A stretch of 63,585 bases of DNA, counting the filler, from Sanchytrium tribonematis (Eukaryota): NCBI GenBank assembly GCA_018985235.1. It is 6 parts of 6 records of this genome, joined end to end, with 100 filler letters (N's around TTAATTAATTAA, not from the genome) between each part and the next. Parts side by side here need not be neighbours in the genome. Positions count along the whole stretch, not along the records: positions 1 to 10,559 come from JADGIG010000291.1; positions 10,660 to 21,189 come from JADGIG010000292.1; positions 21,290 to 31,809 come from JADGIG010000293.1; positions 31,910 to 42,411 come from JADGIG010000294.1; positions 42,512 to 53,001 come from JADGIG010000295.1; positions 53,102 to 63,585 come from JADGIG010000296.1. One strand, given 5' to 3'. Of this stretch, positions 5,880 through 63,351 are shown piece after piece. The position numbers were made by a program, and so were the translations under genes. Positions within the stretch are counted from its first letter, which is position 1, and each line of letters starts with the position of its first letter. Below the pieces are notes generated by a model, which saw only the letters and a list, made by a program, of their open reading frames with translations, made no database searches and was not told where the DNA came from.

Positions 5880-8800
5880 TTACTGTCTGTCATATTCTGT
5901 TTCCAAGGCATTTCTTGACTTGGTTCTTCCTCTTGGTCCATCTACATTCAAATTAGATGGGCTTCTAGAACGTGGTACATCGTCTAAATCAATTTGGGAT
6001 TGTCTTCTGGATTTAATCTCAATTTGTGCTTTTTGTGGCATTTTTGAGTTCTTTCTAGATCTAGCATCTTCAATCTCAATTCTAGGTACTTCAATCTGTT
6101 CTAATTGCTCATTAGATTGGTTTGGAGTAGGTTCCTTTAAATTGATGACGGGCATGTCTTCAAATTGTTTAGAAGATCTTCGCTGCTGTGATTCCAAGTT
6201 ACTTGCCTTTCTAGGTCTCATTTCTTCTACATCCAATTGTTTACTGGATCTACGTTGCTGCATCTCCAAATTAGATGCTTTTCTAGTTCTCATTTCTGGT
6301 GTTTTAGGTCGATCTTCCATTTCAATCAATCCCTTGCTAGATCTTCGTTGTGCAATCTCTATATTCGATGCCAATTTAGGCAAATGCTCCAAACTGGCTT
6401 CATCCCGAATGGGCTCCGATGTTTCACTTGGCATTTGAGTGCGTCTTTTTTCAATTGGTAAATTTGGATCCACATCTCCCACCATTGAAGCCGTTTTCAC
6501 CTTTGTAATTCTCTTTTCTTCCCGTTCTAATACCTTGTCTTCTACTACTTGTTTTCTAAATAGAATATTAGCAGCATAATGCATTGCAATAAATGCAATA
6601 ATCATGATATAACTCAACAACCACAAAGAAATCCACATGCCATTCAATGAATCTCTACATTATAAATCATTACCTCAATAGACTGCATAGTTGATACTCC
6701 ATCACTTTCATCGTTTGTCCCAAAATCGTACACGTAATCGCATCTCGTGCCAAATTATACTGAGCCACAACCAATGCCAATATTTCAGCAGGCATTTGAT
6801 CTACATTACTCAATATTCTAGATTTACCAGTATCAATGGTCACTGCGAATGAATTGACCCCTTTTGTGACGAGCAAGGTAATATTTGTCATTTTATTTTT
6901 CAACAAATTTGTGTTTGAAATCACTTGATTTGCATTTGATTTCGCAGATTGGATATCCAAATTGATTCTATCAATGCCATTGATGGTGTATTGGATATTG
7001 ACTACTTGTACGTCGATTCTATTGTTGTAATCAGCCACACACATGAGTTGATTTGGAGAGGTAGCAGCTGGTGAATATGTGAATTGGTTCACATCATTTG
7101 TTTTAGAAACATTTGCACTATTCTTGACACTGATTAAGGAACTCGTATCAATTGAGGAAGCCGTGAAATTCAATTGTGAAAAATCCATATTTTGAATATC
7201 TTGCGTGGCATCTGTAATCATACTCGTATTAAACAATTGATCAAATTGGAAATCATCTAATGCACTTGTAAATGACGTGATATTGTATTTAGACATTAAT
7301 TTGTCGTATTGCTTGGTGATGTTTAAATAATCCGTGAAATTGGCTGGCAAATATGGAGTAAACACGGGAGATTCTAAAATTTGATCAAATTTCTTACCTT
7401 GTGAGCACATGTCTACTGTCATTAAACCAGCACTGGCAATATTGGAAATACCAGGATTGACACCCATTTGTTCTAAAATAGGGAATCCATCATTTAATTG
7501 ATCACAGACTTCAGTAATGCCAAATGCGAGTAAATAATGGACAATTGATAATGTCATGGAGATGGCAGCTAATAAAAATAAGCAACTACTTAATGACATG
7601 GCCACACGACGTTGTTTGACTTTAATACACAATAAACTCAAAATAATAATGCCAAAAACAGCCACTAAAAATATAATAATACCAGCATTTCTACCAGTAT
7701 TATATTTTGTGAATTCAGGGGTGTATTTTGCAAATTGAGCATCAATCGGGTCTGATTTATTCAATAATTGAGAAACCATTTGATTCATAGTTGCTTTTAA
7801 TCCAGATCTACCTGTATCAATTTTAGTTGAGAAATCATCAAATTGAGTCTGCAATTTGGTTCTAGCATCTGATAATTTCACTTGCATGTTGCTGGTTAAT
7901 TGTGTAGCTTGTTGACTGAATTTTCCTTTATTTTTTGAAACATCGTTTGAAACAGTGTCCAATCCATCTGGTAATGAACTGGCTGCACTCGTGTCTACAC
8001 CAGCTGGTAGATTGCTAAAAAATGCATTTCTTGGACTCTTTGGTGTGTAATCTACTTGACCCTGATTTGTATTGGCTGAATTGGTGCCATCTAATGCCCT
8101 TAATTTGGTACTGATATTCGTATAATTGGTAGATACATTGGTGGCTGTTGTTTTAATACTCTTGACATTCCCATCAATGTCCATAATCCCATCTGCCACA
8201 TTTCCAATGTAAACATCTGCTTCAATAAATGAAGTATTTAAATTGGAGGATAATACGGTCAAATTGCCTTGCGTTTTATTGATCATCTCATTGATGGTAA
8301 TAGATTTAAACGTGGTGATTTTATTATTTGCAAATCCAGCCATATTGTCCAAAACAGTGGAGAATGTCTGTTTGGTGTCTACAGTGAAATTCATGCCTCC
8401 GACGTACACAGAACCAATAGATCTCACAATACCATCCATAGATTTGTATAAATTGGAACTAGAAACAGCTGTGATAACTGCAAATGCGAGAAATAAGGAG
8501 AATGTTAAAAATAACAATATTTGTGCAGTTGCCTTGTATCTTTCACCAGAATTGGAAAAGAATGCTTTTCGCTTCTTGAATATACAACAAATGGCAAAAC
8601 AAGGTGCCATCAAACAAAATAAACACGCTGAAGCAATAGAAATCACTAAAAAAACACCTGCTTTCGTATATCTAGATCGAATCTTGTCTACACTCACTGA
8701 CCCATTATCTGTAATATCTGAATATGCAACGGGTTTGTTATTACGCGTTGAATTTAAGAATTTACCACCAAGTGCTTCAAAACCAGCAGGTTCATAAGAA

Positions 8801-8919
8801 TCTACCAATGCGTACATTGCAGCAATTTGTTGTTCTGTAAATTGTAGTACGGATCCATCTTCTACACCTCCATCTACTTCTTTAGCAGCGTAAATCAAAA
8901 GCAACCAGAGGGGGTTCAT
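5880..8919 (-). CDS. Prominin-like pentaspan membrane glycoprotein; exons 8919-6674 and 6654-5880
   Basis: Five-TM topology with a Cys-rich first TM junction and two large glycosylated loops; spliced junction CSLLR-DSLNGMWISL fits the prominin C..D.LNG.W motif; 3021 nt in frame. Confidence 0.75.
6655..6673 (-). other. 19-nt spliceosomal intron GTAATGATTTATAATGTAG
   Basis: GT-AG, contains an in-frame stop, removal joins the two ORFs. Confidence 0.88.
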
Positions 8920-9092
8920 TTTTTTACTTTTAGATTTCAAGCCACGTAAATGGGCAATTAAAATGAAATTGATCAATCGCGTTGTTAAATAGTCATTAGG
9001 TTTATCTACCCTATTTTATTATTAGCAGTGATCTGTCATCGTGTCACTCCTTTCTCCTGAAATTACAAAAAACAAACAGCACACGTTACCCC

Positions 9093-9725: not shown

Positions 9726-9740
9726 ATAAATGTGAATTTA

Positions 9741-13600: not shown

Positions 13601-14847
13601 CACCCCAAGGTTGTGTATTCAGTCCTATTTTGTTTTCTTTTGTGATGGACAAATTACTTGATTTATTTCCAGACACGGATAATTACCAAATTAGAATATA
13701 TGCAGATGTTATTATTATAATAAGTAGGAGATAATCTACTTTGATTGATATTACCGACCAAGCTACCCGTCATTTGAATGCTAATAATTTCATCATCAAT
13801 GACACCAAATTTCAGTACATCATAAATGAGGATAATCAGGACATTACACTATTAAATGGAATCACTATTACCAAATCCCAGTCTATCAAATACTTGGCCA
13901 CATATATTGATCATACAGGCATCCCATATGCCACTGATATTGCAAATAAATTGGCCAAAGTGGATTTTTCAATTTCCACCATTAAATTCACTAAATCGCT
14001 ATTATCATTTAGGAAATTTTTTAAGTTATTTTACCAGGGTATTTTGATGCCTATTTACCTATATGGATGTGAGAATTATAGCCAAGAAGGCATTGATTTG
14101 TCAGAAAATCACAGAATTAATATTATCAAGAAATTACAGTATAATTATTACCAAATGATTAATAATTATATGACTATATCCAATTACCAACAACAGAGAC
14201 TTATTAATTTCACTAGGCAGCTTATTAATCTTGGAGTTGACCCTCTAAGACAAAATTACACGGATAAAACAGAAATCAAAATTGATAATCAAATTGAAAT
14301 GGATCATTTATGGAATTATCAAAGCACATTAATTGTGCATCACTACTCAAATCATCACATCTCATCATTCAAATGGCCAAATAAAAAAATCCTAACCACA
14401 TTCAAAATTTATTTGAATCATTCTTAACTGGGAATTTATCACGCAAATCCATGAATAACAAGCCAACTATTGTAAATATTGCAGATTTTCATCCAACTCA
14501 CTAGATCACTTGGAGGATTGTGATAAAATATACGTGTCAAAGGATAGATTGATGAATGAATTGAAATGCAACTCAGAAGATAGAATTATCAGAATACTCA
14601 AATTTATTAGAGATTCTGTGGTATTGACTAGGGAGTAGTACCTGTTTGGGATGCACTGGGATGTGGTCAAAGGATAGATTGATGAATGAATTGAAATGCA
14701 ACTCAGAAGATAGAATTATCAGAATACTCAAATTTATTAGAGATTCTGTGGTATTGACTAGGGAGTAGTACCTGTTTGGGATGCACTGGGATGTGGTATT
14801 GCCGCAATGATCCCGCAGTAATCTAATTAGTAAATATTATTATTATT
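10660..14847 (+). mobile_element. Degenerate non-LTR retrotransposon (LINE): ORF1 remnant, APE endonuclease, RT, C-terminal CCHC finger, 3' UTR with (TTA)n tail
   Basis: APE motifs ISYNFHG, TE, SDHYPI; RT motifs PDAW..FRPITLI, DLSTAFD, GSPQGCVFSPILF, YADV (YADD mutated), KYLA; CKYC..DHLEDC near 14470; many stops and frameshifts. Confidence 0.9.
14536..14795 (+). repeat. Perfect 130-bp tandem duplication at the LINE 3' end
   Basis: GTCAAAGGATAG...GGGATGTG at 14536-14665 and 14666-14795. Confidence 0.95.
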
Positions 14848-16630: not shown

Positions 16631-16705
16631 TTGCGCGAAATGCGATTATGAAATTTCAAATTTCAAGAGTATTTCATAATAAATAAAGGATAAAACAAAT
16701 TCAAA

Positions 16706-22783: not shown

Positions 22784-25700
22784 ATGAGTTCTCAAATGTT
22801 GCAAAACACATCTAAACGTGACCACCTTATTCAAGTCGAAAAGGACATACAGAGCCATTGGTATGAAAGCAAAGTATTCGAATCTGATCCTCAAGATAAG
22901 CCAAAATATATGGCAACTTTTCCGTATCCATATATGAATGGAAGACTCCATTTAGGACATGTATTTACCATTTCAAAAGCCGATTTTGCCATTGCTTATA
23001 AGATGATGAAAGGATACAATTGTTTATTTCCATTTGCTTTTCATTGTACAGGTATGCCAATTGTAGCTGCTTCAAACAAATTAAAAAACGAGTTGCAACA
23101 ATTCGGATACGAGAAATTAGTAGCCATGGTCAATGATGTTGATGCCGAGAAAGAAGAAAGCAATGTCCAGCAAAAATCAAAAGTAGCAGCTAAGCAAGGA
23201 AATGCAAAATATCAATTTCAAATTTTAGCTTCCATGGGTGTTGATCTCAAAGAAATACCAAAATTTGCAGACCCAAAATATTGGACTGAATACTTTCCAC
23301 CCCATGCTCAATCTGATTTGATGAAGTATGGTGCTCATATTGATTGGCGAAGGCAATTTATCACGACTAGTTTTAACCCTCACTATGATATGTTTATTAG
23401 ATGGCAATTCAACAAATTAAAGAAGCTTGAAAAAATAAAGTTTGGAGAGAGACACACCATCTGGAGCATTTTAGATAATCAGCCATGTATGGATCACGAC
23501 AGAAGCCAGGGTGAAGGTGTTGGCATTACAGAATACACAGGAATCAAAATCAAGCTTGAAACTCCAAATGAAGCTCTTGGCAAATTGCTAAAAGATCATC
23601 AAATTGATACAAAAACAATTAACATTTATTTTATTGCTGCCACTCTTAGACCAGAAACCATGTATGGCCAAACAAACTGTTTTATTGGGACCAAAATTGA
23701 ATACTCTGCACACAAGGTAAATTCTAATAGTATATATATAATGACACCCAGATCAGCCAGAAATATGGCTTATCAAGGTCAATTTGAGACAAAGGGAAAT
23801 GTAAATGAAATATTTAGAATCAATGGCAGTGATCTACTTGGATGTGCTTTAAATGCACCTCTCTCCCACTACAAAACCATTTATATGCTACCCTTACAAA
23901 CAGTGTTGGACAAAGGAACTGGAATCGTCACTTCTGTGCCATCTGATTCTCCTGATGACTATATCATGTGTCAAGAACTCTTGAAGAAAAGTGATTACTA
24001 TAAAATCAAAAAAGAGTGGGTCAATGAACCAATAACTATTATAGAAACACCACTCTCCACAAATATTGCCAAATACGCTTGCGAGCAATTTAAAATTAAA
24101 TCTCCAAATGATGCACAACAATTGATTAAAGCAAAAGAATTAGCTTACAAACAAGGATTTTACAGTGGTACTATTCTGGTAGGAGAGTTTAAAGGCCAGC
24201 CAGTCAGTGAAGTCAAATTAAAAATTAGAGATCAGCTAATTGCTAAAAACGATGCTTTTGTTTATAGTGAGCCAGAATCATTAGTAGTCAGCAGAAGTGG
24301 GGATGAATGTATCGTGAATTGTTGTGACCAATGGTATTTGGATTATGGTGAAGAAGAATGGAAACAGAAAACAATCAAGGCATTAGAAGATTTGGAATGT
24401 TATCATGGAGAAACGAGACACTTATTTTTAAATACGCTCAATTGGCTAAACCAATGGGCGTGTGCTAGAGGATTTGGATTAGGAACTGAGCTGCCTTGGG
24501 ATAAAGAATTTTTGGTGGAATCTTTGAGTGATAGTACCATTTATATGGCATATTACACAATAAGTAACGAATTGAAAAATATTCCTGCAGAAGAATTACG
24601 AGAGAATATGTTTGAGTATTTGTTTGGCACAGAAGTTCAATTGGAAGAACTTCAATGTAGAGATCAAGTTAAAAATCGTTTAAGAGAAATGAAGAAATCA
24701 TTTGAGTATTATTACCCATTTGATTTGCGTGTTTCTGGTAAAGATTTAGTACCAAATCATTTAACAATGTGTCTTTACAACCACACAGCATTATTCAATT
24801 CTAAATATTGGCCAAAGTCGATCAGATCTAATGGTCATTTATTACTTAACAGCAAAAAGATGTCGAAATCTACAGGCAATTTTATGACATTGTGTGACAG
24901 CATTCAAACATTTGGAAGTGATGCAACCAGAATCACTTTAGCTGATGCTGGTGATCTGATTGAGGATGCCAACTTTATGACAAACACTGCAAATGCCATT
25001 ATTTTGAAATTATTTAATTTATTAGAGTGGACAAAAGAAATGATTGCAAAGAAAGATGCGTTGAGAAAAGAAATGAATTGGATTGATTCCTTGTTTATCC
25101 ATATGATTTACAGCCTTTGTCATCAAGCAGATAATTCCTATAATCAATTGATGTTTAGGGACGCATTAAAATATGCATTTTATGAGTGCATCGATGTGAG
25201 AGATTGGTATATTAATTCGTGCAATTTACTTGGATTGGAATTGAATGCAGTTATTTTGGAGTATATTGAATTGCAATGCCTGATTATGGCTCCGATTAGC
25301 AGTCACTCAAGTGAGCATATTTGGAAGTTATTAGGCAAATCCGGATTTGTGGTCAAGCAAACATTTCCATTAAAAGAAGTTGATCAGTCTTTAGTGAAGC
25401 AATATAATTATTTGAAATCAGTTATACATTCAGTACGTACTCAAGCAGCTGTAGATGCAAAGAGACAATCTAAAGATAGTGGCAAAAAAGTTTTGAATTT
25501 ATTTGTACAAGCCAATTATCCAAAATGGCAAAGTGATGCTATAGATGTTTTAAAGGAAACTTTTGATGGAAAATTTTCGGATGAAGAAGTTAAGTTGCTA
25601 GGTAAGAAAGGATTATTGAAGAACAAGAAAGTGATGCCGTTTGTGCAAATGATAAAAGTATTTAATATTAACTAAGACACAAGTTATACAGAGTGGAAAA

Positions 25701-28051: not shown

Positions 28052-29712
28052 TTAAGCCCTACCTGGTTGACCTGGAAGACCAGATTGTGGTTGTTGAGAT
28101 TCAGGATTTTTGACAGTTTCATCGATACTCAGAATCAAGCACGCTGCTTCCACTGCGCTAGCAATAGCATTTCTTTTAACAAGCTCCGGTTCCCAGACAA
28201 AGCTCTCATAGGTATCCACTACAATTCCTTCATCGAGATCCACACCAGCGTTTTTTTCATTCTTTTGCGAATGTGCCTGTCTTAATTGGTTCATCAAATC
28301 AGTGCAATCCAAACCGCTATTTAAAATTAGCTGTCTTGGAATAATTTCAAGTGCTTGTGCAAACGCCATGTAGATCATTTGAGCTTTTCCATTTAGTTTG
28401 TAGGCGTTATCACGAAGCGTTTTACTAGTTTCCATCTATATAAATATCAAATTACATCTATAGCACCTCCACCCGCTACAACACTCTTGTTTTTGATTGC
28501 TCTTCTTACAATCATGATAGCATCGTGTAAACTTCTTTCAACTTCTGCTAAAAATTGACCTGCTCCTCCTCTTAAAATCAAAGTGCTAGTTTTGCTGCTT
28601 GGACATCCAGTAAACATATTAAATCTTTCACCCCCAATAAGTTCCTCCTTGAATAATCCGCATGTTCCCAAATGTGTAGCTTCCAAATCATGAATACTTG
28701 AGTGAATAGTACAATTGACGGCTTTAGTGACTCGTAAAAGATCGTCTCCTGGAACACGGCCAGCACAGAATATATTACGGTCTGCAAAATATTGTGTTGC
28801 CAAATCTCCGATGGGAAGTCTACTTAATACAACGTTTGCACCAGTTTTAACAATGTTTTCTAGCTTTTCATAAATAATATTCCATTCCGCGTCTACAACC
28901 TTTTGGTATTCACTAACTTTTTCAATCCTGACTTCAGCATTATCTTTTTCAGCCTTCAATTCCAATTCAACGTTTAGACATAAAATCTTAGGATTTTGAA
29001 TTCCTTTAGGTTGCTGCTCAAATCCTGCATATGAGAACGTTTTTTTAAACGCCACTCCATCTACTAATAGAGAATCTTCCATTCCACCACCGTGAATTTT
29101 TTTCATAGCAATGAATTGTTCATTGAGAGAATCTTGGTCATCAAGTTTTAATACAGCGTCCACCACCATTTTCCCAAAAAATTCCCGGTGAGACTGAATT
29201 AATTTAGAGGACATGCTGGTCTTAGCACACTTAAATAAGATATCATGCATATCTCCGGACAATGAAACGGAATGGTTTGAAATTTCCTTCATGGCATCAG
29301 TTCCAGCATTTCTTAAAGTTTTGATAATAACTTGAGGATTTACGCCTTCCTCAATCAAATATCTAACTTGCTTTAAAATCTCAGCAGCGATTAAAACAGT
29401 TGACGTTGTGCCGTCTCCTACTTGAGCATCTTGTGCTCTTGCAATATCCACAAGCGCTTTTGCTGCAGGATGAATGATATCAAGTAATTTCATGATAGTA
29501 GCACCATCATTAGAGATGGTAACCTTACCTTCCTTATCAACAATTAATTTGTCACAACCCAGTGGACCAAGTGTTGTTCTTATTGTGTCAGCAACTGCAA
29601 TGCATGCACCAATGTTACTTAGCAACTGACCCTTCCCTTGAGACTGATCACTACCTTCTTTAAGCAATACAATTGGCATATTTAACATTTGATTTTGTTG
29701 TTGACGACTCAT
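28052..29712 (-). CDS. CCT7: Chaperonin CCT subunit eta; exons 29712-28456 and 28435-28052
   Basis: [32 protein letters not shown]; junction GGGAID-ME matches the GGGAIEME motif. Confidence 0.97.
28436..28455 (-). other. 20-nt spliceosomal intron GTAATTTGATATTTATATAG
   Basis: Interrupts the invariant GGGAxEME motif with no residues missing. Confidence 0.95.
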
Positions 29713-35499: not shown

Positions 35500-38400
35500 A
35501 TGGACGATAAGCAAGTTAATGCCATTTTAAAAGCAAAGTTCAGCAAACCAAGACAAAAACAGTCTCAATTGTTTGAATTACCAGTGGAACATGCCAGAAA
35601 GATCATTAAGGATAGAGGAGATATGAAAGACAAGAAATTTAAAGGCGAACAAACTGCTTATTTACAAGCATTAAAATATATGCCGTATGCTATTATGAAG
35701 TTGTGGGAAAATATTCCTATGCCATGGGAAAATGAAAAGCAAGTCAAAACTATTTATCACATTCATGGTGCTTTGACAATGATCAATGAAATTCCAAAAG
35801 TAATTCCATCTGTATTTATGGCACAATGGGGCTGTATGTGGGTAGCCATGAGAAGAGAAAAAAGAGATAGAAAACATTTTAAAAGAATGCGATTTCCTTG
35901 TTTTGACGATGAAGAGCCAATTGTGAATTACAGTGAAAATGTTATGGATATAGATGCGTTAGAAGGTATTCAGTTAGAACTGGATGAGGACGAAGATGGT
36001 CCAGTATCTGAGTGGATTTATGAACACCAGCCTTTGCAGCACGTGAATGGCTCATCTTACAAGAGATTTCATTTTGACACAAAAACATTAGCCACTTTGT
36101 ACAGATTGGCTTCACCTTTAACTAGTGATATTTACGATAAGAATTATTTTTATTTATTTAATGACAAGGCTTTCTCAACTTCAAAAGCTTTGAATGTTGC
36201 AGTCCCTGGAGGTCCCAAATTTGAGCCATTGCATCCAGAACTACTAAAAGAAGAAATCAATGAGGATTGGAATGAGTTTAATGATTTGAATAGAGTATTA
36301 ATTCGACTTCCGATAAGACAAGAATACAAAATTGCAATGCCTCATTTATATAACCAGGTTCCACGAGATGTCCAAATTGATGCATACCATTATCCTCTTA
36401 ATCTATTTGATCCAAATGATGAAGTTGAATCCACCTTTCAATTTAATCCAAGATTTAATCCCATAAATGCCAGAGATTTACAGGACCCATTTGAAACAAG
36501 CGAGGAACCATTAAAAGATTTAGAATTTGATATTTTACCATTTTGTAGTGACTATGAATTAGAAAATGAACATACATTCAACGGATTACAATTATATTGG
36601 GCACCCAATCCATTTAATGAAAAAAGAGGATTAACTTGTCGGGCTCAAGATGTTCCAGTTATCAAACATTGGTATTTACAAAGATGTCCACCCAGTCAAC
36701 CTGTTAAAGTGCGTGTATCCTATCAGAAATTATTAAAAAATCATGTCAAAAATCAATTACGCAGAAAACGAAAAGAAACACATTCCAAGAAATATTTACC
36801 AAAAACATTAAGAAATACCAAGTATTTTCAACAAACTAATATGGATTGGGTGGAAGCAGGTCTGCAATTATTGCAACAAGGACACAACATGGTCAATATT
36901 TTGATTGAAAGAAAAGAATTGAGTTATTTGCATTTGGATTACAATTTCAATTTAAAACCTGTCAAATCCATGTCAACCAAGGAGAGAAAAAGAAGTCGAT
37001 TTGGAAATTCATTTCATTTAATTAGAGAAATGTTGAGACTTACCAAATTGATGGTTGATGCGCACGTTCAATTTAGATTAGGGAATATCGATGCTTATCA
37101 ATTGGCAGATGGGTTACAATACATGTTCTCGCATGTAGGACATTTAACTGGAATTTACAGATATAAATATAAAATCATGAAGCAAATCCGATTGTGTAAG
37201 GACTACAAACATTTAATTTATCACAGATTTAATTCTGGTCCTGTTGGAAAAGGTCCAGGATGTGGATTTTGGCTACCAATGTGGAGAGTATGGATTAATT
37301 TTACCCGTGGCATTACGCCTCTTTTACAGAGATGGCTAGGAAATATTCTCAGTAGACATTTTGAGGGTCGACAAAATGCAAAGGGCGCTTTACAACTGAC
37401 TAAACAAAGAATTGAAGCTCATTATGATATAGAATTGAGAGATTCAGTTTTACATGATATTATTGATATGATGCCAGAAGGGGTCAAGGCGAAGAAATCA
37501 AAAGTCATTTTACAACATTTGTCAGAAGCATGGAGATGTTGGAAAGCCAATTTAGAATGGAATGTGCCAGGAATGCCAGAACCTGTGGAAATAATTATTA
37601 GAAGATATGTGCAACGAAAAGCAGATTGGTGGATTAAAACCACTGAACAAGTTCGTCATAGAATTAAAAAGGGTGCCACAGCTGATAAAACAGTTGTTAA
37701 AAAGAATTTAGGTAGATTGACTAGAATGTATTTAAAAGAAGAACAACAACGACAAGATAATTATTTAGAAAATGGACCATTTATTAAAACTGAGGAAGCT
37801 ATTAAAGTCTATGAAACTATGGTAGATTGGCTAGATCAAAAGAAATTTAATCCAATTCCTTTTCCTCCTTTGAATTATAAACATGATGCCAAATTACTTG
37901 TTTTAGCATTAGAGAGACTTAGAGAACAATATAGTGTGAAAAGTAGATTGAATCAGCAACAAAGAGAAGAAATGGGACTTATTGAACAAGCTTATGACAA
38001 TCCCCATGAAGCACTGACTAGAATTAAAAGATTGCTGCTGACTCAGCGCACTTTTAAGCCTGTGAATCTTGAATTTATGGATTTATTTACAAAACTTACG
38101 CCAATGTATGACATTGATGCATTAGAAAAGATTACAGATGCTTGGTTAGATCAATATTTGTGGTATGAAGCTGATAAACGTCAATTATTTCCAAATTTTA
38201 TAAAACCATCTGATGATCAACCACAGCCAGTCCTAGTCCATCAATTTTGTAACGGCATTGCTCGATTGAATAAGAAGAATACTATCGTTGTTTTAGAAAC
38301 CCAATTAGAACAATTTTATGAAAATGTAGATTTATCTTTATTAAACAAATTATTGAAATTAATTATGGATCCTAATTTGGCAGATTATATCACATCAAAA

Positions 38401-41400
38401 TACAACATCGAACTGACGTACAAGGATATGACTCACACAAATGCAATTGGATTAATTAGAGGTTGTCAATTTAGTAGTTTTGTGGTTCAATATTATGGAT
38501 TAATGGTGGATTTAATGATTTTGGGACCCCAGCGTGCTTTGGAAATTAGTAGATTAGATTTTATGCAATTTGAACCCTCTAGTCACCCAATTAAATATTA
38601 TATGCGATATATTGAAAAATTATACATTGTATTTGAATTTGACAGTGATCAAATTTCAGAATTATTGGAAAAGGGAATGAGGGAGTATCCCTTAAATCAT
38701 GAGGACTACAACTCCTATAATAACAAGAGAAATTGGGCAAAAGATCAAAGAATGAGATTATTACAGAAAGATGTCATGGTTGGAAAATCCATTTATTTTA
38801 CAATTTTATCCAGATTGCCAAGTAGTATTTGCAGTTTAAATTGGTCAGAAACATTCCCTTGCGTGTATAATCAGAACAATCCGAATATTTTATTTACAAT
38901 GTGCGGATTTGATGTACGATTGGTATTTGAGTCTAAAAATGATGAGGGATGTTGGCAGATTATTCATGAAAATCAACAATTGGCAACTGCTTATATTAGA
39001 GTGAGTCAAGAAGATATTGATGCATTTGAAAATAGAATGAGACAAATTTTAATGACAAGTGCGGGAACCACATTTCAAAAAGTCATTCAGAAATGGAATT
39101 CTGCCTTGCTGGGATTAGTGGTGTATTATAGAGAAGCCATTTTAAATACTCATGAGTTATTGGATTTATTGGTTAAAAGTGAAAATAGAGCTCAAAATCG
39201 GGTAAAAATGGGATTAAATTCAAAAATGCCAGCGAGATTTCCACCTGTTGTTTTCTACACCCCAAAAGAATTGGGTGGGCTGGGAATGTTGAGTGTGGGT
39301 CATGTATTAATACCTGCTAGTGATTTAAGATGGAGTAAACAAACAGAAACTGGTGTAACTCATTTTAGAGCCGGGCTGAGTGAACATGTTATTCCAAATT
39401 TATTTCGATATGTGCCTAGCTGGCAAAGTGAAATTATAGATTCTAAGCGAGTTTGGACAGAATATGCTGAGAAGAGAAATGAGGCATTGCAACAAAATCG
39501 TCGATTGACTTTGGATGAGTTGCAAGATTGTTTTGATCGTGGATTACCGAGAATTAACACTTTATTTCAAAAAGATAGACATACTTTGACATATGACAGA
39601 GGTTGGAGAATCAGAACTGAATTTAAACAATACAGCATCTTAAAGGTGAATCCTTTTAAATGGACAGATCAAAAGCATGATGGTAAATTATGGAATATGC
39701 AAGCTTATAGAGGAGATATGATTGAAGCCCTTGGTGGTGTTGAATGTATTTTAGAACATACTTTATTTAAATGTACTTATTTTCAAAATTGGGAAGGATT
39801 ATTTTGGGAAAAAGCCAGTGGATTTGAAGAAAGCATGAAATTTAAAAAATTGACAAATGCACAGCGTAGTGGTTTAAATCAAGTCCCCAATAGAAGATTT
39901 ACACTTTGGTGGTCTCCTACCATCAATAGAGCACAAGTTTATGTCGGATTTCAAGTTCAATTGGATCTGACAGGAATTAATATGAATGGTAAAATCCCGA
40001 ATTTGAAAATTTCATATATTCAAATATTTAGAGGTCATTTATGGCAAAAAATACACGAATCTTTAGTGATGGATATGTGCCAGGTTCTTGATCAAGAAAT
40101 GGATGCATTAGAAGTTGAAAAAGTAGTAAAAGAAACCTTACATCCTAGAAAATCCTACAAAATGAATTCTTCTTGTTCAGATATCACGCTGTCTGCTAAT
40201 TACAAATGGAATGTCTCCAAGCCATCCTATTTGAGTGAAAAATCAGATGAATTTGTGACAACTTCAGAAATATTTTGGATTGATATTCAATTGAGATGGG
40301 GTGATTTTGACTCGCATGATATTGATAGATATTGCAGAATGAAATATTTAGATTACAGCACAGACAATATGAGTATTTATCCTTCTCCAACTGGTTTAAT
40401 GATTGCATTTGATTTAGCGTATAATACTTGCTCAGCTTATGGAAATTGGTTTCCAGGTTTAAAAGCATTAGTCGCAGAAGCATTAAAAAAGATTATGAAG
40501 CACAATCCAGCTCTTTTTGTTTTACGAGAAAGATGTAGAAAGGCTTTACAATTATATGCCAGTGAGAGTTCAGAACAACATTTAACTTCTCAAAACTACG
40601 CAGATTTGTTCCAAAATCAAAGAACTTGGTTTTTAGATGATACAAATGTGTATAGAGTGACTGTCCATAAATCTGCAAACGGAGGTCTATCAACCAAACC
40701 AATTAATGGCGCATTGTTCATTTTGAATCCAACAACTGGCCAATTGTTTTTGAAAATTATGCATCACAGCATGTGGAGAAATCAACAGAGAATTGGGCAA
40801 TTATCTAAATGGAAGGTGGCAGAAGAAGTAGCAGCATTGATTAGATCTCTACCTCTAGATGAGCAGCCAAAACAAATTGTAGTAACGAGAAAGGGAATGT
40901 TGGATGCTTTAGAAGTCCATTTACTAGACTTTCCAAATATTGTGATTAAAGGAAGTGAATTGCAATTGCCATTTCATTCCATATTAAAAGTAGATAAATT
41001 AGGAGATTTGGTAATGAAAGCCACTGATGCGCAATTACTTTTATTTAATTTATACGACGACTGGTTAAAATCATTTTCTCCTTACACTGCATTTTCGAGA
41101 TTAATCTTAATTTTAAGAGCTTATCATATTCACCCCGAAAAGACAAAAGTGATTTTAGAAATGACACAGCATGAATATTTTATTTGGCCAACTTGTAGTG
41201 AAGAAGAATGGATCGGAAAAGAAGTGAAATTAAAAGATTTAATTCTTGAGGATTATGGGCTTAAAAATAATGTCAACATAAAAAGTTTAACTCAAGCTGA
41301 AATTAGAGATGTTGTACTGGGTGCTCAAGTAGTTGCACCTAGTTTAAAACGACAAGAAATTGTTGATAATCAAGAAAACACTGCTGTTGCGACTGCCACA

Positions 41401-42174
41401 ACCACATTTAATGTTCATGGCGAAGAAATGATCACGGTTACCACTTCGAAATACGAACAAGAGACATTTGCAAGTAAAGCAGATTGGAGATTAAAGGCCA
41501 TAAATGCCACAAATTTATATTCTAGAAGTGAAAATGTCCACATTTCCAATGGAACTGAAAAAAGAATTAAAATTCCTAAAGATTTAGTAAGAACATTTAT
41601 ATCTATTTCAGATGTGCGCACTAAAATTGTTGGATTGCTTTTCGGAAATCTGGATCAAGTCGAATGTTGCGTGATTTTGCCGCAATATGGTTCAGCCAAT
41701 TCTGTAGAATTTACAAATACGCCATTGAATCATCCAAAATTAAATGATTTAAATATGTTGGGAATGATCCACACCAAATTAATTGAAGACAATCAATTAA
41801 ATCCAAATGATTTACAATTACAAATTCAAATTATGAAACATTTTCCATCAAATGAATTGGCAAATGTTACTTGTGCATTTGTGCCTGGCAGCTGTCAATT
41901 ATCTTGCTATATTCCATCTAGTTTTGATGAAAGTAATTACTTGTCTAATGTTAAAAAGGGAATGATTGAATTGGTGAATGATGGTGGGTATTTTATGGTT
42001 CCAAATGATGGTATTTGGAATTATGGATTTCAAGGAACCATGTTGAGAAAAGAGATGAAATATCATTTGAAAATTGACCGACCTTTGGAATATTATGATC
42101 CTTTGCATCGCCCTATTCATTTTCAACAATTTACAGATATGAATTTGGATGTGGATGTTGAAGATTATTTGTGA
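35500..42174 (+). CDS. PRP8: Pre-mRNA splicing factor Prp8, apparently intronless and intein-free
   Basis: 2224 aa; [42 protein letters not shown], RNase H-like and Jab1/MPN regions. Confidence 0.99.
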
Positions 42175-45878: not shown

Positions 45879-48750
45879 TTATTCCATTCCGAGCCTATTA
45901 ATTCTTTCCGATATCGAAGAGGTTTTGGACGTGGATGGTTTAGGAGGTATTGGGGGAGGAATTTTCAGCTCTTCTCTAGAGGAATGATGAGACCTTACAG
46001 GTATTGGGGGAGCCGAGCCAGTGGTATCTTCATTGAGGTCAATCAACGGCATATCTTGTCGTTTGGGCAAAGGTGGCTTTTCGAAGGTAATGTTTGTAAC
46101 GTTCAAATCACTAACACCAGCTATTACTCTAGGTGGCAATTCAGGAGAGTCCATAATGTTCAAAGTTTTTCGAGTTCCGTCAGTGACACCCTTTTTCCCC
46201 TTAATTGTCATGCTCATTCTTCTCTTGACACTATCTACTTGAATATCCGTGCTAATTTTATCTAGTTTTTGCTCACTGTAATGGAAATCAATCAAGTCGT
46301 TTTTGCCTTTCGCCACTTGCAAACATTGCTGCAATAACTCTTTTCTTTTCAAGTGGTCAATTAAAACCACTCTAGTTTTAAAAAGTGCATAAACTGGCTT
46401 ATGATCACTAACTTTCAAAGATGCGCTTGAATAGAGTTCACAACCCATGTCACCTTTAAATAATATACGATCTGTCCAGGCTGGTTTTCTCAATTTTTCG
46501 CTGGTATCGTAATTGTCTGTCCCATTGTCAAATTTGTAGGTAGGATTAAATGATATTGGATGTTCGATATATTTATCAAAAGCTTGTCCGTTAGTCATTG
46601 CGGTTTGAAGCTATATAAATTTAAATTACTTGATCATATTGAAACAATAGAGGTAGATTGTTCTCCTTTATATGCTGGCGAATTTGTTCATTTGTATAGA
46701 AATCTATCCTGTAATTAAAATCTCCAAACCAAATTACATTACGAATATTCGAAAGTTTTTCATTATCAAACAACACATCGCTAATTGTTGCCACATCCTT
46801 AATTCTCTCAAGGAGTTGTTCTTGTCCAGCTGCCAGATGAGCAGTTATAAAAACAAAAGCAGTGTCATAAATATTTAACTTAACCAAAATTCCTCCTTTG
46901 TTTCCTGCCATTCCACTGAACCCAGTTTTTTTAATTTTATAATCTACCTTAGAAACGGCATTTATATATTCATTTTTAATAAATATAAAAATAGCTGTAC
47001 CCACGACTTGAATACTTTTAACAAGGTGATAGTCTTGGAGAGTTGTTGCAAATTTAGATTCCCATACTTGCTTTTTTTCATAGTCTGTACTTATCACTTG
47101 ATTTGGAGTAAGTTCCACAATCTCCTGTAATCCGATAACTACTATTGGTGCATTATTGAATTGTTTTAATAGGGGTGAAATATCTGCATAAGGAAGTTGC
47201 CCATTAACATTCCAAGTGCAAACATATACTTGCAACTCTTTAAAATTTGTAAAAGCCCGATCTTGTTCTCTTAGCATGGTGTAAGCAGTAGCTAGTAAAT
47301 CGTTTTGGACCATGATTTTAGAAGAGATCAGCCATTCAATAATATACTGCTTTTTAACATCTGTTAGTTTACTGTTGACATACCTATTAATGCTTTTAAA
47401 TCCGTCGTCCAGAACCCCAGCCCAAGTCATTTTTCCATGCCGTGTAAAGCTGCTTTTGACAGCACCAGTTCCAGTATAAACAATACTTAGCACATCTCCA
47501 TGGTTAGCAAACAATTCGCTGAAAGACTGAAGTACGTGAGGCTGCAAGACCGCTTTTAGAATTGGGTAATCCTTTGCCATTAGCTCTAGAACTATTAAAA
47601 ATATTTGATGATGAACAACATTCGTTCGATCTAATACATCCAAACAATTAATTCGAATCATCCCCTGCTGCTGCTTTTCATGACTGCTATAGCTGATTTT
47701 TTGCAAATACGGCATTGCCAAATGTTTTAACAAATAAACATCCTGCGCTTGCTTCACCAGATTATGATAGTCAAAATGAACATAATTGATATCAGCTTCA
47801 TAAAATTGTTTTTGCATTTCTAAGACCAATTGTTCGTACATATCACTAAGTTCGCCTTCCATGTTGTTGCTATCCAAAAGATTAAATAGAACAAGAAAAT
47901 TTCCATGTTTTAACAAATGCTGAAAATGATTAGATATTGCATGCAGAGAGCTGCTTAAAGGCCTAGTTATAGATATTTTGCTGGGTGTTTGTTCCCAAAA
48001 AACAGGAACACTTGCACGAAGGAGTTCAAAGGAAAACGATTTTTGATTAAGGGTCAGCTGCATTCTTGAGAAAACCTGATTGGCGCAGTATCCTTCGTCA
48101 TCTAGTCCCCTCTTACTATATCTAGTCCCGGTTCTTTTAACACTAACCAAACTACAAATTGAAAGCTCAATCTGCTGATTAGAGGCCAATGAAGTATTTT
48201 GAAGAGGCACAATAATTTTATCCACATATCCGAGAACTAGGAAAACTAGACATTGATGCGGTATATCGTACATATCAAGTATTTTCATGAATGGTTTAAT
48301 AGATGAATGATTCCAAATATATTGATTTTCGACATCAATTTTGTGGGTTCTATAGAAACTTTGTTCATTTAGATACAATTCAAGGTCATAGAGACCATGT
48401 TGTTGATCTATGCTGGTGATTAAATGATCAATTGTGATCCAACTACTAGGTTTTTTTGGGATGTGAACAAATTGGATTTTTTCAATGCTATCATATTCAG
48501 AATTAATATTCATCGTTTTACTCACTATACAAAGGTAGTAGGGTGTCATATTAATTTGATTTGGAACTTCTTTATCTTCAAATATTCCGACAATTCCATC
48601 AATTTGTAACTTTTTCGAGTTTGATATACTGACATCAACTTTAATAAAATTTATATGCTGGCCGTTGTAAAATATGGCAAAGTGGATCTTTTTACCGTTT
48701 ATTTCAACCTCTAAAACCAAAGTGAACTGATCGTCAGCATATAAAAACAT
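45879..48750 (-). CDS. Synaptojanin-like Sac1 + inositol 5-phosphatase (INP51/52/53 type); exons 48750-46630 and 46610-45879
   Basis: RTGTRY..RG, RINCLDVLDRTN, GNKGG, WFGDFNYRI, junction YDQ-L, PTYKFD, PAWTDRIL, SDHKPV, Pro-rich tail. Confidence 0.93.
46611..46629 (-). other. 19-nt spliceosomal intron GTAATTTAAATTTATATAG
   Basis: Interrupts the conserved DQL motif of the 5-phosphatase domain. Confidence 0.94.
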
Positions 48751-53924: not shown

Positions 53925-55212
53925 TTATTTGGGTATTCGAGATAGTCGGATGTAATTTTGTACGTGATACAATAAAAGTAAGAAAATAATGGCCGAGGCT
54001 ACAGATATAGAAACCTTAGTATCAATAGAACGTTGATATAATTTGTCTGCAAATTTGTTGTTCCAATTATTATATGATTGAGAATTTTCTAGGTGAACAA
54101 ATTGAGGATGTGTAAAAAACTGCCTTATTATAGTCGCTGATGAGAATATGTCGACAATCATTGAGTCTCCGTTTAGAATAAATTTTGGACGAATCGAATT
54201 TTTGTCGACAACCAAATATTGCTGTTCCTGAGCACTTAGATCGGTCAAATTTATGGAGAATGATATAGGTGTGATTCCTTGCAATATCTTGTCATCCACA
54301 ACAATGGATTGAATGGCTTCTGAATCGGACATATGGATGAGATTCCATGCCATTAACTGAATTTTCAATTTTGGATTTGTCGACAAGGCTAACTAAATTA
54401 GTTTGATGTACAGTATCTGATTTTGTATAATAAGAAAATCCTTCTCTATTTACAAGTGACATATTTGGGTTGTTATAACAGTTTATATAATAATCTAAGT
54501 GAATTATGCCTTTATTCGTAAATCTTTGACAGTTTCCAACTGTACAATTCAGGTCTGGGACTGTTTTAATAACCTGACAGTTGATCTTTTTTGAGGTGCT
54601 GCATGTTGCACCGGACCTGTCTACTGGACAATCGCAAGAAGTATCACGGACGATGGATGTATTTGCTAATGAGGGTAATATTCTGCAACATTGTCCATTG
54701 TAAACGACACTGCTCGCATTCAACTGCGTGGTATCATTGGAGCTTATGGTGTCCAAGTAATTGAGAGCCATACTGCTATTATATAATGTTGAGTTGGTGT
54801 TATTAAAAACGGTCGAATTGTCACAAGTGAAATTCAGCTGATTAAATGATGGTCTATCTGAATAAATGTATTCCGGATCTATATTCATGATGGCTCTTCC
54901 ATTATTCCAGCTTCCATTATTTAAATTTAATGAAGTGGAACAGAAATCTTGGCAAAGTGGAACAAATAGCTGATTTGTTGATGAAATGGAAATATTGACA
55001 TTACCACATTGAAATCTTAATTTTGTATTTTGTATTTTTCTTGCAGATATATCGCATTTTATAGAATCTCTTTTGAATAATTCAACCTGATCGGATTGAC
55101 CTGTTATTATCACTTTTGTTTCTAATGCGTTATCTGATGTGCCATATATTGAAGAAAGGATCTGGATCCAAATATCAATATTTTTAAAATATTTAAAACT
55201 AAAAAATTCCAT
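53925..55212 (-). CDS. Cys-rich (EGF-like) single-pass membrane glycoprotein; exons 55212-54412 and 54392-53925
   Basis: CDCPVDRSGATC, many N-x-S/T sites, C-terminal TM; a 19-nt intron joins the two ORFs (1269 nt in frame). Confidence 0.7.
54393..54411 (-). other. 19-nt spliceosomal intron GTACATCAAACTAATTTAG
   Basis: GT-AG with a CTAAT branch motif abutting TTAG; restores the frame. Confidence 0.85.
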
Positions 55213-55299: not shown

Positions 55300-56526
55300 T
55301 TAATATTTGAATTTTTTACGAAAGCTTTTTGAATTTTCCGATGACCTTTTCTTTGGTCTTTGCTCTTCGACTTTAATAGGATCCTTAGTTTTAATGTTGT
55401 ATTTCTTTTCGCTACCGACTATAACATCTTTCTGAACACTGACTTTTTCCTCTCCTATTATTGTGTAAAGCGATTCTTGCTTGTTTATAGGTGAGTGAAC
55501 CATTTTTGGCCTATTATTCGGTTTCTCCCTTTCAGGTCCAATGTTTTCCACTGGGATAGCAGCATTATTTGTATTCTGCATATCAACTGCGGGTTCAAAA
55601 TTCTTAATATCCTCAATTTCCATTTCGTCGGGCTGATCATCAATCATTTCACCAAATCTAGGTTCAGGTTTAATCCAGTATTTCGTATTTGTCTTTTTCT
55701 TCTCCTCAATGCCAAAAACATCACCATATAACGACCTGCCATGTAAATCTACTGGAGGTTTGCCATAACCTGAGCTGTGGTAGCCCCATGAGCTACCTTT
55801 TGGAATGGGCGCATTTACACCGGGAATTTTTAAGCCAGGGTAGCTAGGCGGTGGACCATATCTTTGCATATTGTAAAGGTAAGAAGGCGGGTCTTTTGGT
55901 CCCATACCCAAAGCTCTTTTCAATTCATCGGATAAATTACCACCGGCCCGTTGAGCCTTGACTTTAAGTTCGAATTCCTTTCCTTCATAAAAACATTCTC
56001 CAAATTTTGTCATTTGAGGCTTCTCCTGATGCTTAAAAAAAGCATCGTGAAGAATTTGATAGTCGATTTCTAACTTGTGAATTTTTCCATGTAATCTTGC
56101 CCTCACTTTTTGCTTCAATTTCTGTTGATCCTCCTTTTCTTTGCCAGCTTGCCTTAGCTCACTGATGTTGGTATCCTTTATGTATTTAGGAAGTTCATAA
56201 GGCATTTTTTCGATACCTCTTTTAGATTGCAAATATTTTCGCTTACTGCTCCAATGTGCTGGTACTGGAACTACATTTAGTTTTGATTTCAATTCAACTA
56301 AAAAGATAGGATCCTTTGCATCACAATCCACCCATTCTACATTTTCTGGTTTCTTTGCTCTTGATTTTAATTCTGTTAAAGATATTTTATTTTTCTTATT
56401 TTGCTTCATTTCTTGGCTCGTAACCTCTTCTATTTTGGGCCTTTTAAAATCTATTTCTTTAGGAGTGAATCGGCTTAAAACGCTTGAAAATTCTTTAGGT
56501 AAATCAATTTCCATAAGAGAATCCAT
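55300..56526 (-). CDS. SF3B2: U2 snRNP SF3b subunit 2 (SAP145/Cus1)
   Basis: VPVPAHWSSKRKYLQSKRGIEK, IDYQILHDAFF, YEGKE, MQRYGPPPSYPGLKIPG. Confidence 0.95.
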   Translation of the reverse strand: MDSLMEIDLPKEFSSVLSRFTPKEIDFKRPKIEEVTSQEMKQNKKNKISLTELKSRAKKPENVEWVDCDAKDPIFLVELKSKLNVVPVPAHWSSKRKYLQSKRGIEKMPYELPKYIKDTNISELRQAGKEKEDQQKLKQKVRARLHGKIHKLEIDYQILHDAFFKHQEKPQMTKFGECFYEGKEFELKVKAQRAGGNLSDELKRALGMGPKDPPSYLYNMQRYGPPPSYPGLKIPGVNAPIPKGSSWGYHSSGYGKPPVDLHGRSLYGDVFGIEEKKKTNTKYWIKPEPRFGEMIDDQPDEMEIEDIKNFEPAVDMQNTNNAAIPVENIGPEREKPNNRPKMVHSPINKQESLYTIIGEEKVSVQKDVIVGSEKKYNIKTKDPIKVEEQRPKKRSSENSKSFRKKFKY

Positions 56527-58604: not shown

Positions 58605-58634
58605 TGGTCAATAAAATTTATGTGATAAGCCACA

Positions 58635-61834: not shown

Positions 61835-62063
61835 ACTTTGTCAAAGTGTTGCCCATTCTAGCAGATTTCAAGAAGCCTTCTTCAACGATAATAAAACATT
61901 CTATCTTATTTACAAAGTTTATTCTAGGTGTTGAGTCAAATATGGAACTTTCAGAAATAGGAGATGATGAGATCAAGAAACTTACTACTGATTACATGCT
62001 GAAATATTACCAAAGACCTAGAAAATTCGAGCGTAAGGTAAAAGCTAGATTTGAGAATTATCT

Positions 62064-63351
62064 TTAGCGCTTCTCCAATAAAAGCTTTAATCTTCTATTG
62101 TCTTCTTTCAATCTTTGAATTTCGGTTATAAGTGTTTTAAACATTTCGTCCACAGCGAGATTTTGAAGCATGGATTTAATATCTTTCTACATTAAAAATA
62201 AAAGCCTTTTGTTGATGCATTTGCTTAATCATTTCTACGTGAACATTTACAATGTCAGATTTGAACTCTTCTTTCAAGTTCTGAATTGAAATAAGTACAT
62301 CTGATTCGGCAGATAAAGCTTGGGAAGGCTTTACAACATCAACATTTGCTGTAAGATTTTGTAGTCTCTCCTCCAAATTTGTCAATAAGTTTGAGGCTTT
62401 TTTCACACTTTGAAATGGGGTAACTTCTAATTCCATTGCATCATTAAGATTTTGAACGGAATCTGCAGTGACTCTTGGGGGTGTGAACAATTCAATAGGA
62501 GAATTAATTTCAAAGTCTGAGGTAATTTTTAGTTTGGAAGCAACAAAACTGACTTTTGATAAGGCAATGCTTTCAATGGTATCAAGAGATGCAGCTAACT
62601 TAATTAGACCATGGTTGTATCCTACATATAGCATACAACTCTGGTCATCAAAATAAATGCAGTTGCATTCTTTGCAATCTGTAGATGCCAAAATTTTACC
62701 TGCTGAACAATCAAATTTAACAAGATTCGAACCAGATATGAACATTATTTTCATAGCATTTGAAATGCAAAAGTCCTTCAAGTAGTCGTCTTGATAAATA
62801 GAAACAAGATTTTGTTTCAATAAATCATACATATAAACATTTGATTCAGTCATGACGTACATCTTGAATATATCAGAAGAGTTATAGCTCCATTTAATTT
62901 TTATGACACTTTCCTCAAACTCCAATTTTTGAAATTCTTTCGAAGTCCGATTCAAAATCTCAACATATAGACCACCAGAAACTGCGACCATAACATCATC
63001 AGCACTCAATTTTACCAGATTGTGTCTAATATTGTATGTATATATTTTTCCAGAAGTCTTTTGTCGCTTCAAATCGTAAACTCTCATTATCTCATCATCT
63101 GAAGAAAACACAATATAAGAATCATCTTTTGTTAAATCAAAGTCATGGACTCTTTCTTTGATTTTAAGTTGAATGCAGTCCATTATATTCAAAGAATTCC
63201 ATACATAAATTTTATAGTCGCTCAAGACCACTAAAAAGCATTCAGTTCCCCAAGACCACATCAATTTTTGTACTTTCATATCCGAAGATTTGTGTTTTAA
63301 CTTGCTTATCTCATTATAAAAAATCAGTTCATCAGAACCGACCGTAAGCAT
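62064..63351 (-). CDS. NEDD1: NEDD1/GCP-WD-like WD40 protein; exons 63351-62206 and 62186-62064
   Basis: WD40 N-terminus; after splicing DIVNVHVEMIKQMHQQK-KDIKSML...LITEIQRLKEDNRRL, the NEDD1 C-terminal gamma-tubulin-binding helix. Confidence 0.8.
62187..62205 (-). other. 19-nt GC-AG intron GCTTTTATTTTTAATGTAG
   Basis: AAG|GC donor, same TAATGTAG 3' end as the prominin intron; restores the NEDD1 terminal helix. Confidence 0.8.

What the first reader, a model, noticed from the sequence alone, without database searches (positions are those of the whole stretch)
6655..62205. Branch point fused to the 3' splice site at a fixed -6 position
Seen: aligned on the terminal G, all nine introns have A at -6, T at -8 and a pyrimidine at -5 (TTATTTAG x3, TAATGTAG x2, TAACTAAG, TTATATAG x2, TAATTTAG; consensus TWAYNWAG). 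There is no polypyrimidine tract and the 5' site is weak (GTA, GTT, GCT). Known: Stentor tiny introns also use an A six nucleotides from the 3' end. Inference: convergent ruler-type recognition; the lariat loop would be only 14-15 nt, forcing the U6/5'SS and U2/branch helices to abut.
Basis: partly seen in the sequence, partly recalled or inferred. Interest (0 to 1): 0.8.

Follow-up and report, generated by a model that had tools for sequence, protein, structure and literature searches.

The report
Tiny fungal introns, fixed branch adenine
This DNA from an algae-parasitic fungus holds nine introns only 19-20 bases long, each with an adenine six bases before its end that is likely the splicing branch point: a layout already known from other organisms, but in a fungal group where my searches found no description of introns.

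Summary
Observation confirmed. Nine 19-20-nt introns (eight GT-AG, one GC-AG) all have T at -8, A at -6 and a pyrimidine at -5; 6 of 180 AT-rich decoys do. Two lie outside the stated coordinates. Seven have homology support; no RNA reads were available. The window is a sanchytrid fungus. Read-through tails of proteins from Sanchytrium, Amoeboradix and two unnamed relatives break at the same junctions and fit the rule. A full-length CCT7 relative is continuous across the predicted junction.

The motif is a degenerate ordinary branch site in the U2 register, not a new signal. The -6 geometry is published for Yarrowia lipolytica and Stentor, so the 'ruler' is a known convergence. New here: 19-20-nt introns in a fungal phylum whose published gene sets were called without introns, which leaves such genes truncated. 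Slu7 and Prp18 (Prp18 sets a minimum branch-to-AG distance in yeast) are undetected in Stentor and absent from the Amoeboradix annotation; the latter is weak evidence. Branch use is inferred, not mapped. The scan earlier noted longer tiny introns in Rozella and Neolecta, and none on this genome.

The parts
926..945 (-).
   Evidence: Spliced product is colinear with the uninterrupted paralogue P0126, E 1e-9; 10 of 12 non-window paralogues that reach this point break here
3042..3061 (-).
   Evidence: Colinear with P0126, E 3e-10; not independent of the first intron
6655..6673 (-). 19-nt GT-AG intron, phase 2, in a prominin-like membrane protein gene
   Evidence: Shortest frame-restoring option in the motif-blind scan; exon 2 open for 257 codons and favoured by codon score; exon 1 resembles prominin clusters (a lead only); no alignment across the junction
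25658..25676 (+). 19-nt GT-AG intron, phase 0, in cytosolic leucyl-tRNA synthetase
   Evidence: Homologue HMM: exon 1 ends at position 1009, exon 2 starts at 1011, E 2e-11; P0172 and P0173 break at the same junction
28436..28455 (-). 20-nt GT-AG intron, phase 0, in CCT7 (TCP-1 eta)
   Evidence: Pfam positions 1-379 then 380-488; HMM 417 then 419; P0002 and P0265 break here, P0264 is continuous
31994..32013 (-). 20-nt GT-AG intron, phase 0, in a MyTH4-RhoGAP gene cut by the contig end
   Evidence: Exon 1 matches RhoGAP positions 5-34 of 148 and ends at the donor (E 0.0012); exon 2 alone gave no Pfam hit, and its RhoGAP-like look is my recall
46611..46629 (-). 19-nt GT-AG intron, phase 0, in a synaptojanin-like gene
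   Evidence: Pfam PF22669 positions 1-206 in exon 1 and 206-287 in exon 2
54393..54411 (-). 19-nt GT-AG intron, phase 0, in a gene of unknown family; the weakest of the nine
   Evidence: Joins 267 and 155 codons, codon score favours the spliced frame; no homologue found; found by motif
62187..62205 (-). 19-nt GC-AG intron, phase 0, in a NEDD1-like WD40 gene
   Evidence: Exon 1 ends at residue 625 of the 660-residue NEDD1 (E 0.18); exon 2 supplies a 40-residue coiled-coil-like tail; weak E-values but a fitting position; AAG precedes the GC donor
35500..42174 (+). PRP8 gene, core of the spliceosome; no intron found
   Evidence: Full-length match to human and yeast Prp8; 400 residues colinear with human 1453-1853 apart from one gap
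55300..56514 (-). SF3B2/Cus1 gene, U2 snRNP subunit
   Evidence: Pfam DUF382 and PSP domains

Best explanation
These are nine 19-20-nt introns of a sanchytrid fungus, likely removed by an ordinary U2-type spliceosome that likely uses the adenine at -6 as branch point and then joins at the AG five bases further on. The 3' end (consensus T-A-Y-T-N-A-Y, two bases, AG) is a worn-down canonical branch site fused to the acceptor. U2 would pair with intron positions about +9 to +15 (19-nt class) and bulge the -6 A, giving a 14-15-nt lariat loop. The weak 5' site would be found mainly by its near-fixed distance from this 3' module. The very short branch-to-AG span would make the second-step factors Slu7 and Prp18 unnecessary, and they may be lost. 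Shown: the sequences, the frame restoration, the motif and the shared junctions in relatives. Inferred: splicing in this organism, the branch position, the snRNA pairing and the factor loss.
For: Homologue profiles continue across the CCT7, synaptojanin and LeuRS junctions; the spliced LRR products are colinear with P0126. P0264, a 545-aa CCT7 on a 1,679-nt contig in the Amoeboradix 90% cluster, runs through the predicted junction (82.7% identity over 544 columns). Motif statistics. Positions -11..-9 are mostly T, A, Y (7, 6, 8 of 9), and the U2 register score is 8.2 at -6 against 7.1 at -9, where only 1 of 9 has an A. Relatives: back-translation of read-through tails fixes -6 A and -5 Y in P0123, P0124 (20 nt) and P0173 (19 nt, the only length from 12 to 30 that fits). 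In 8 of 8 LRR paralogues with the 19-nt pattern the codon over -8..-6 is Ser or Leu, the only sense residues T-N-A allows (decoy rate 0.18), while the middle codons vary. PRP8 and SF3B2 are in the window. The Amoeboradix annotation lists both U2AF subunits, BBP/SF1, SF3B1, U1-70K, Prp17, Prp22, Cwc22, Cwc25 and Isy1, but no Slu7 or Prp18; Stentor's table also has none. Yeast needs neither factor for short spans, and Prp18 sets a 10-nt minimum; by that paper's count this span is 5.
Against: No transcript of this organism and no lariat were seen; P0264 could be genomic with the intron lost, and its DNA could not be viewed. Nine introns in 63 kb is a small set. LRR paralogues share ancestry; for the 19-nt class the third codon base at -6 is compatible, not proven, and other lengths (13, 22, 25, 26, 29) also fit single tails. 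Two introns lack junction-spanning homology. The annotation also returns no Yju2, Smu1 or Prp16-type KOG entry, so its blanks include likely false negatives; KEGG/KOG numbers were recalled. U1, U2 and U6 could not be inspected.
Confidence: 0.8

Rival explanations
1. The introns are real, but T(-8)/A(-6)/Y(-5) is an extended acceptor motif read by a protein such as U2AF (as with TTTCAG in C. elegans), and branching is loose or elsewhere.
For: Both U2AF subunits are annotated in Amoeboradix; C. elegans has conserved -6 and -5 acceptor bases; 6 of 9 introns also have an A at -10.
Against: The conserved bases match the T-N-A-Y core of the branch consensus and its upstream extension, and the pairing score peaks at -6. 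An A at -10 would give a 10-11-nt loop and is missing in 3 of 9.
Confidence: 0.1
2. A specialised ruler spliceosome measures about 14-15 nt from the donor and 5 nt to the acceptor using altered snRNAs or a remodelled core, so the mechanism differs from standard U2-type splicing.
For: Lengths are confined to 19-20 nt, G at +5 is absent from 9 of 9, and only 2-3 bases would separate the two helices; in humans short 5'-site-to-branch spans need Smu1/RED.
Against: The 400 PRP8 residues examined are colinear and conserved; U1, U2AF, BBP and SF3B parts are annotated in a relative; Stentor splices tighter loops with conserved snRNA motifs.
Confidence: 0.07
3. The intervals are not introns but assembly errors or pseudogene frameshifts, and the motif is AT-rich noise picked after the fact.
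For: The window joins six contig pieces and holds real frameshifts (LRR2 near 4500, decayed retroelements); no transcript was seen.
Against: Three other genomes break at the same CCT7 or LeuRS junctions; essential single genes are restored exactly; all nine have GY-AG ends; decoy rate 6 of 180.
Confidence: 0.03

Closest known systems
Stentor coeruleus 15-16-nt introns (PMC9505925; parts 1-3 of 6 and Table 1 passages read)
   Same: AU-rich, branch A six bases from the end in both length classes, weak signals, conserved Prp8 core, Slu7 and Prp18 not detected; its commonest intron ends in the same eight bases as two window introns.
   Different: Here 19-20 nt with a 14-15-nt loop (10-11 in Stentor), a clearer branch consensus, an unrelated lineage, and introns near the 3' end of genes where Stentor's are 5'-biased.
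Anchored branch point of Yarrowia lipolytica, Trichomonas and Giardia (Irimia and Roy 2008, PMC2483917; section 9 and passages read)
   Same: No pyrimidine tract and a fixed branch-to-AG distance; Yarrowia's two bases between TACTAAC and AG put the branch A at -6, as here.
   Different: Those branch sites are near-perfect consensus and Yarrowia introns are rather long; here the site is degenerate and the whole intron is 19-20 nt.
Encephalitozoon cuniculi miniature introns (passages of PMC2483917 and PMC6349667)
   Same: Fungal-lineage parasite with introns about a third of 76 nt and branch consensus CTAAYTT; that AG follows directly (A at -6) is my recall, not read.
   Different: Strong 5' sites, poorly spliced, reduced spliceosome; here shorter, with weak 5' sites and many factors annotated in a relative.
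Bigelowiella natans nucleomorph introns, 18-21 nt (PMC6009652; passages read)
   Same: Same length range, AU-rich, GT-AG.
   Different: No discernible branch adenine, about three per gene, organelle genome.
Myxobolid and dicyemid ultra-short introns (PMC13644364; part 1 of 3 read) and Rozella introns of about 30 nt (passage in PMC6349667)
   Same: Opisthokont parasites with extreme intron shortening.
   Different: Median 22-27 nt or about 30 nt; no fixed -6 branch in the passages I read.

Membership tests
U2-type spliceosomal intron | GT-AG or GC-AG ends whose removal restores the protein | tested here: met
   9 of 9 have such ends; homology supports seven, firmly for CCT7, LeuRS, synaptojanin and the two LRR genes, weakly for RhoGAP and NEDD1
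U2-type spliceosomal intron | Branch-site-like sequence able to pair with U2 GUAGUA and bulge an A | tested here: met
   Register score peaks at -6 with A in 9 of 9; canonical U2 motif assumed
U2-type spliceosomal intron | Removal from mRNA | tested here: inconclusive
   No reads of this organism could be laid; a relative's continuous CCT7 on a CDS-sized contig fits splicing
U2-type spliceosomal intron | Lariat formed at the branch A | not testable with these tools
   Needs lariat reads or primer extension
U2-type spliceosomal intron | Major spliceosome encoded (proteins and snRNAs) | tested here: inconclusive
   PRP8 and SF3B2 in the window; other proteins only in a relative's annotation; no snRNA in the window and no genome held
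Anchored branch point (Yarrowia/Trichomonas type) | Fixed branch-to-AG distance | tested here: met
   Same offset in the 19- and 20-nt classes, 9 of 9, for the inferred branch A
Anchored branch point (Yarrowia/Trichomonas type) | No polypyrimidine tract between branch and AG | tested here: met
   Only the -5, -4 and -3 bases lie between
Anchored branch point (Yarrowia/Trichomonas type) | Strong, near-invariant ACTAAC consensus | tested here: not met
   Only -8 and -6 are invariant; C at -9 in 1 of 9 and at -5 in 1 of 9
Tiny fixed-length introns (Stentor type) | Narrow length class under about 25 nt genome-wide | tested here: inconclusive
   9 of 9 in the window are 19-20 nt and relatives' tails fit; no genome-wide set; 18- or 21-nt in-frame introns were excluded only in CCT7 exon 1, LeuRS exon 1 and 400 PRP8 residues
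U12-type intron | Extended conserved 5' consensus | tested here: not met
   Positions +3 to +8 vary; the U12 consensus itself is recalled

The most novel reading that the evidence does not exclude
Sanchytrids carry the shortest introns of any fungus, 19-20 nt genome-wide, spliced by a spliceosome that has lost the Slu7/Prp18 ruler. Then -6 is the physical floor of branch-to-AG spacing, reached independently by a ciliate, a yeast, microsporidia and sanchytrids, with factor loss tracking it. The introns sit near gene 3' ends, the reverse of other intron-poor genomes, which would point to lineage-specific gain or retention, and the published sanchytrid proteomes would be systematically truncated.
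Probability: 0.3. Interest if true: 0.72.

Novelty: new member of a known kind. Interest (0 to 1): 0.48.

Why it matters
It adds an apparently independent origin of near-minimal introns, inside the fungi and next to Blastocladiomycota. It also gives a comparative test of whether a -6 branch goes with loss of the Slu7/Prp18 spacing factors. In practice the public sanchytrid proteins are called as plain ORFs and stop inside these introns (CCT7, LeuRS, 10 LRR paralogues), so domain and gene-loss calls for the phylum may need redoing with a minimum intron length under 19. The -6 anchoring itself is not new.

Tried and rejected
No whole genome is held, so there is no genome-wide intron set and no snRNA search; Rfam found only two tRNAs in the window. 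RNA runs: no RNA holder listed, so no reads were laid. Related DNA: the best of 80 kept metagenome loci was 70% identical; genome contigs gave 80 prokaryotic chaperonin loci at 35-39% and viral contigs one fragment; none is a sanchytrid. A six-frame Pfam scan of unannotated regions was not completed, so hidden multi-intron genes there remain open. PDB searches did not place LeuRS exon 2 alone (a homologue HMM later did) or the prominin-like exons; the Atlas gave no usable hit for the 54-kb gene. Candidates rejected or left unsupported: 42756-42775 (motif present, but the unspliced frame has its own start); 26456-26475 (G at -6, removal breaks the cytidine deaminase frame from its only nearby start); in-frame motif matches inside PRP8 (40394-40417, 40480-40500) and CCT7 (29350-29367), which align to homologues without insertion; the LRR2 frameshift near 4500 (a loss of bases against LRR1); the frame break near 27230 (no frame-restoring GY-AG seen by eye). 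Alternative genetic codes were not needed. Selection for stop codons does not explain the motif: 5 of 9 have TTA, not TAA, at -8..-6. The careful CCT7 tree did not finish; only the quick tree was used.
Full report
Source. The window is AT-rich eukaryotic DNA in the standard code, six contig pieces joined by N-linkers. Its CCT7 is 86% identical to P0002 and groups with it on a long branch on the Blastocladiomycota side of a 99-support split (quick tree, 40 rows chosen from 120, midpoint root). The accession labels name P0002 and the LeuRS relative P0172 as Amoeboradix gromovi and the LRR paralogues as Sanchytrium tribonematis. I read the window as a sanchytrid and did not determine species or sample.

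The observation. A scan for frame-restoring GY-AG intervals of 12-60 nt that ignored the motif gave 139 rows. The ninth (54393-54411) missed the read-through cut-off and came from a motif-directed scan. Two of the nine lie left of the stated start and are paralogues. All nine have T at -8, A at -6 and a pyrimidine at -5. Six of 180 AT-rich decoys have all three. Interior shuffles gave a fixed T-n-A pair at any offset with P=1.5e-5 for eight introns and 5.6e-4 for the six with homology anchors. I did not test every other row by homology; most lie in decayed retroelements, between neighbouring genes, or are longer variants of the same junctions.

Are they introns? Profiles continue across the junctions of CCT7 (Pfam 379/380; HMM 417/419), synaptojanin (206/206) and LeuRS (1009/1011, E 2e-11). 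The spliced LRR products align through the junction and the membrane segment with the uninterrupted paralogue P0126. RhoGAP and NEDD1 matches stop at the donors (weak E-values). The prominin-like gene and the 54-kb gene rest on frame and codon score only. Other genomes break at the same places: P0002 and P0265 in CCT7, P0172 and P0173 in LeuRS. P0264, in the Amoeboradix 90% cluster, is full length on a 1,679-nt contig and continuous at the predicted junction. This looks like a spliced transcript, but its DNA could not be seen and intron loss is not excluded. No reads of this organism were available.

More cases from proteins. Because these public proteins are plain ORFs, their tails read into the intron. 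Of 12 non-window LRR paralogues that reach the junction, 10 break there and 2 (P0126, P0271) run on. I left out P0129, P0272, P0277, P0357 and P0373, which end earlier, and P0310 and P0374, whose tails did not show this junction. Back-translation fixes -6 A, -5 Y and -8 T in P0123 and P0124 (20 nt), and -6 A and -5 Y in P0173 (19 nt, the only fitting length). In the eight paralogues with the 19-nt pattern the codon over -8..-6 is Ser four times and Leu four times, the only sense residues T-N-A allows. The decoy rate is 0.18, the next codon starts with a pyrimidine in 8 of 8, and the middle codons vary. Three of the eight were computed and five read by eye. Limits: shared ancestry, an unseen third base, and other lengths that fit single tails. 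Ser suggests C at -7, so the core is T-N-A-Y rather than T-W-A-Y. If the Amoeboradix CCT7 intron is 20 nt like its orthologue, its Tyr codon and stop fall on -11..-6 and give a near-consensus branch site (inference).

Mechanism. Positions -11..-5 follow the fungal branch consensus in worn form, and a U2 pairing score peaks with the bulge at -6 (8.2, against 7.1 at -9 where 1 of 9 has an A). The branch A would be base 14 or 15, so the one-base length difference lies on the 5' side, and 2-3 bases would separate the 5'-site helix from the U2 helix (standard registers assumed). The 5' site lacks G at +5 in 9 of 9. Downstream AGs lie 2-4 bases away in four introns and are not the frame-restoring ones, which fits a ruler and first-AG choice equally. 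PRP8 and SF3B2 are in the window, and 400 PRP8 core residues are colinear with human. In the annotation table of PMC8371127 (supplement 4, cut when stored; the Amoeboradix sheet appears complete, the Sanchytrium sheet is mostly missing) I found both U2AF subunits, BBP, SF3B1, U1-70K, Prp17, Prp22, Cwc22, Cwc25 and Isy1, and no Slu7, Prp18 or SF3B6 (identifiers recalled). Yju2, Smu1 and a Prp16-type KOG entry were also blank, so the blanks are weak. Stentor's table lists Slu7 and Prp18 as not detected. Passages of PMC10158995 and PMC10711555 say that Slu7 is unneeded at spans of 9 nt or less and that Prp18 sets a 10-nt minimum in yeast; by the latter's count the span here is 5.

What is known. 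Fixed branch-to-AG spacing without a pyrimidine tract is described as a repeated convergence, and Yarrowia's two-base spacer puts the A at -6 (PMC2483917). Stentor has the A at base 10 of 15 and 11 of 16 (PMC9505925). Nucleomorph introns of 18-21 nt show no branch A (PMC6009652, passages); myxobolid medians are 22-27 nt (PMC13644364, part 1); E. cuniculi and Rozella introns are about 25 and 30 nt (PMC6349667, passages). For sanchytrids, the search 'sanchytrid' + 'intron' listed two papers, each with 'intron' only in the references; the genome paper called ORFs with TransDecoder (passages). A second search showed one paper with all three terms among 15 listed (PMC9010356, listing only). PMC13685798 and PMC8476143 (passages) added nothing on this. 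Subscription papers are not covered, and two supplements of the genome paper were too large and one was images, so a prior mention cannot be excluded. 'Shortest in fungi' is therefore not established.

Verdict. Real feature, correctly seen; branch use likely but unmapped. The -6 anchoring is a known kind; the lineage and the size are the new part. Earlier scan notes on Rozella, Neolecta and a marine eukaryote describe similar, longer cases (unchecked), with none on this genome or look-alikes. Interest 0.48.

Noticed in passing
window, all nine introns: Every intron lies in the 3' part of its gene: relative position 0.63-0.93 in eight genes, and 0.95 in the MyTH4-RhoGAP gene, which is cut by the contig end and so overstated. 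Stentor's are 5'-biased. My blind scan needed 40 upstream codons, so 5' and UTR introns could be missed.
   Followed up: partly
window, all nine introns: None has a length divisible by three; in-frame 18- or 21-nt introns would escape an ORF-break scan and were excluded only in parts of three genes.
   Followed up: partly
P0126, P0271 versus window 609-4911: The expanded sanchytrid LRR-stalk-membrane family has lost or never gained this intron in 2 of 12 paralogues, and switches between 19 and 20 nt among the rest.
   Followed up: partly
window 4483-4560 (-): LRR gene 2 has a frameshift by loss of bases and a five-residue gap against its paralogues: decaying copy or assembly error.
   Followed up: partly
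window 11000-18600: Decayed retroelements: a reverse-transcriptase fragment at 13273-13557 (Pfam RVT_1) and gag- and integrase-like pieces judged by eye; a direct repeat of about 110 nt near 14537-14795.
   Followed up: no
window 43851-43932 (-): 82-nt tRNA gene whose anticodon ARAGORN could not assign; possibly intron-containing.
   Followed up: no
window 30198-31352 (-): GH130 mannooligosaccharide phosphorylase-like gene, a family I recall as mostly bacterial; possible horizontal transfer.
   Followed up: no
window 53928-55212 (-): 422-codon cysteine-rich gene after splicing, with no Pfam or Atlas match.
   Followed up: partly
P0173, P0264, P0265: Unnamed ENA and JGI records show further sanchytrid-like organisms in environmental data, sharing the CCT7 or LeuRS junction.
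   Followed up: partly
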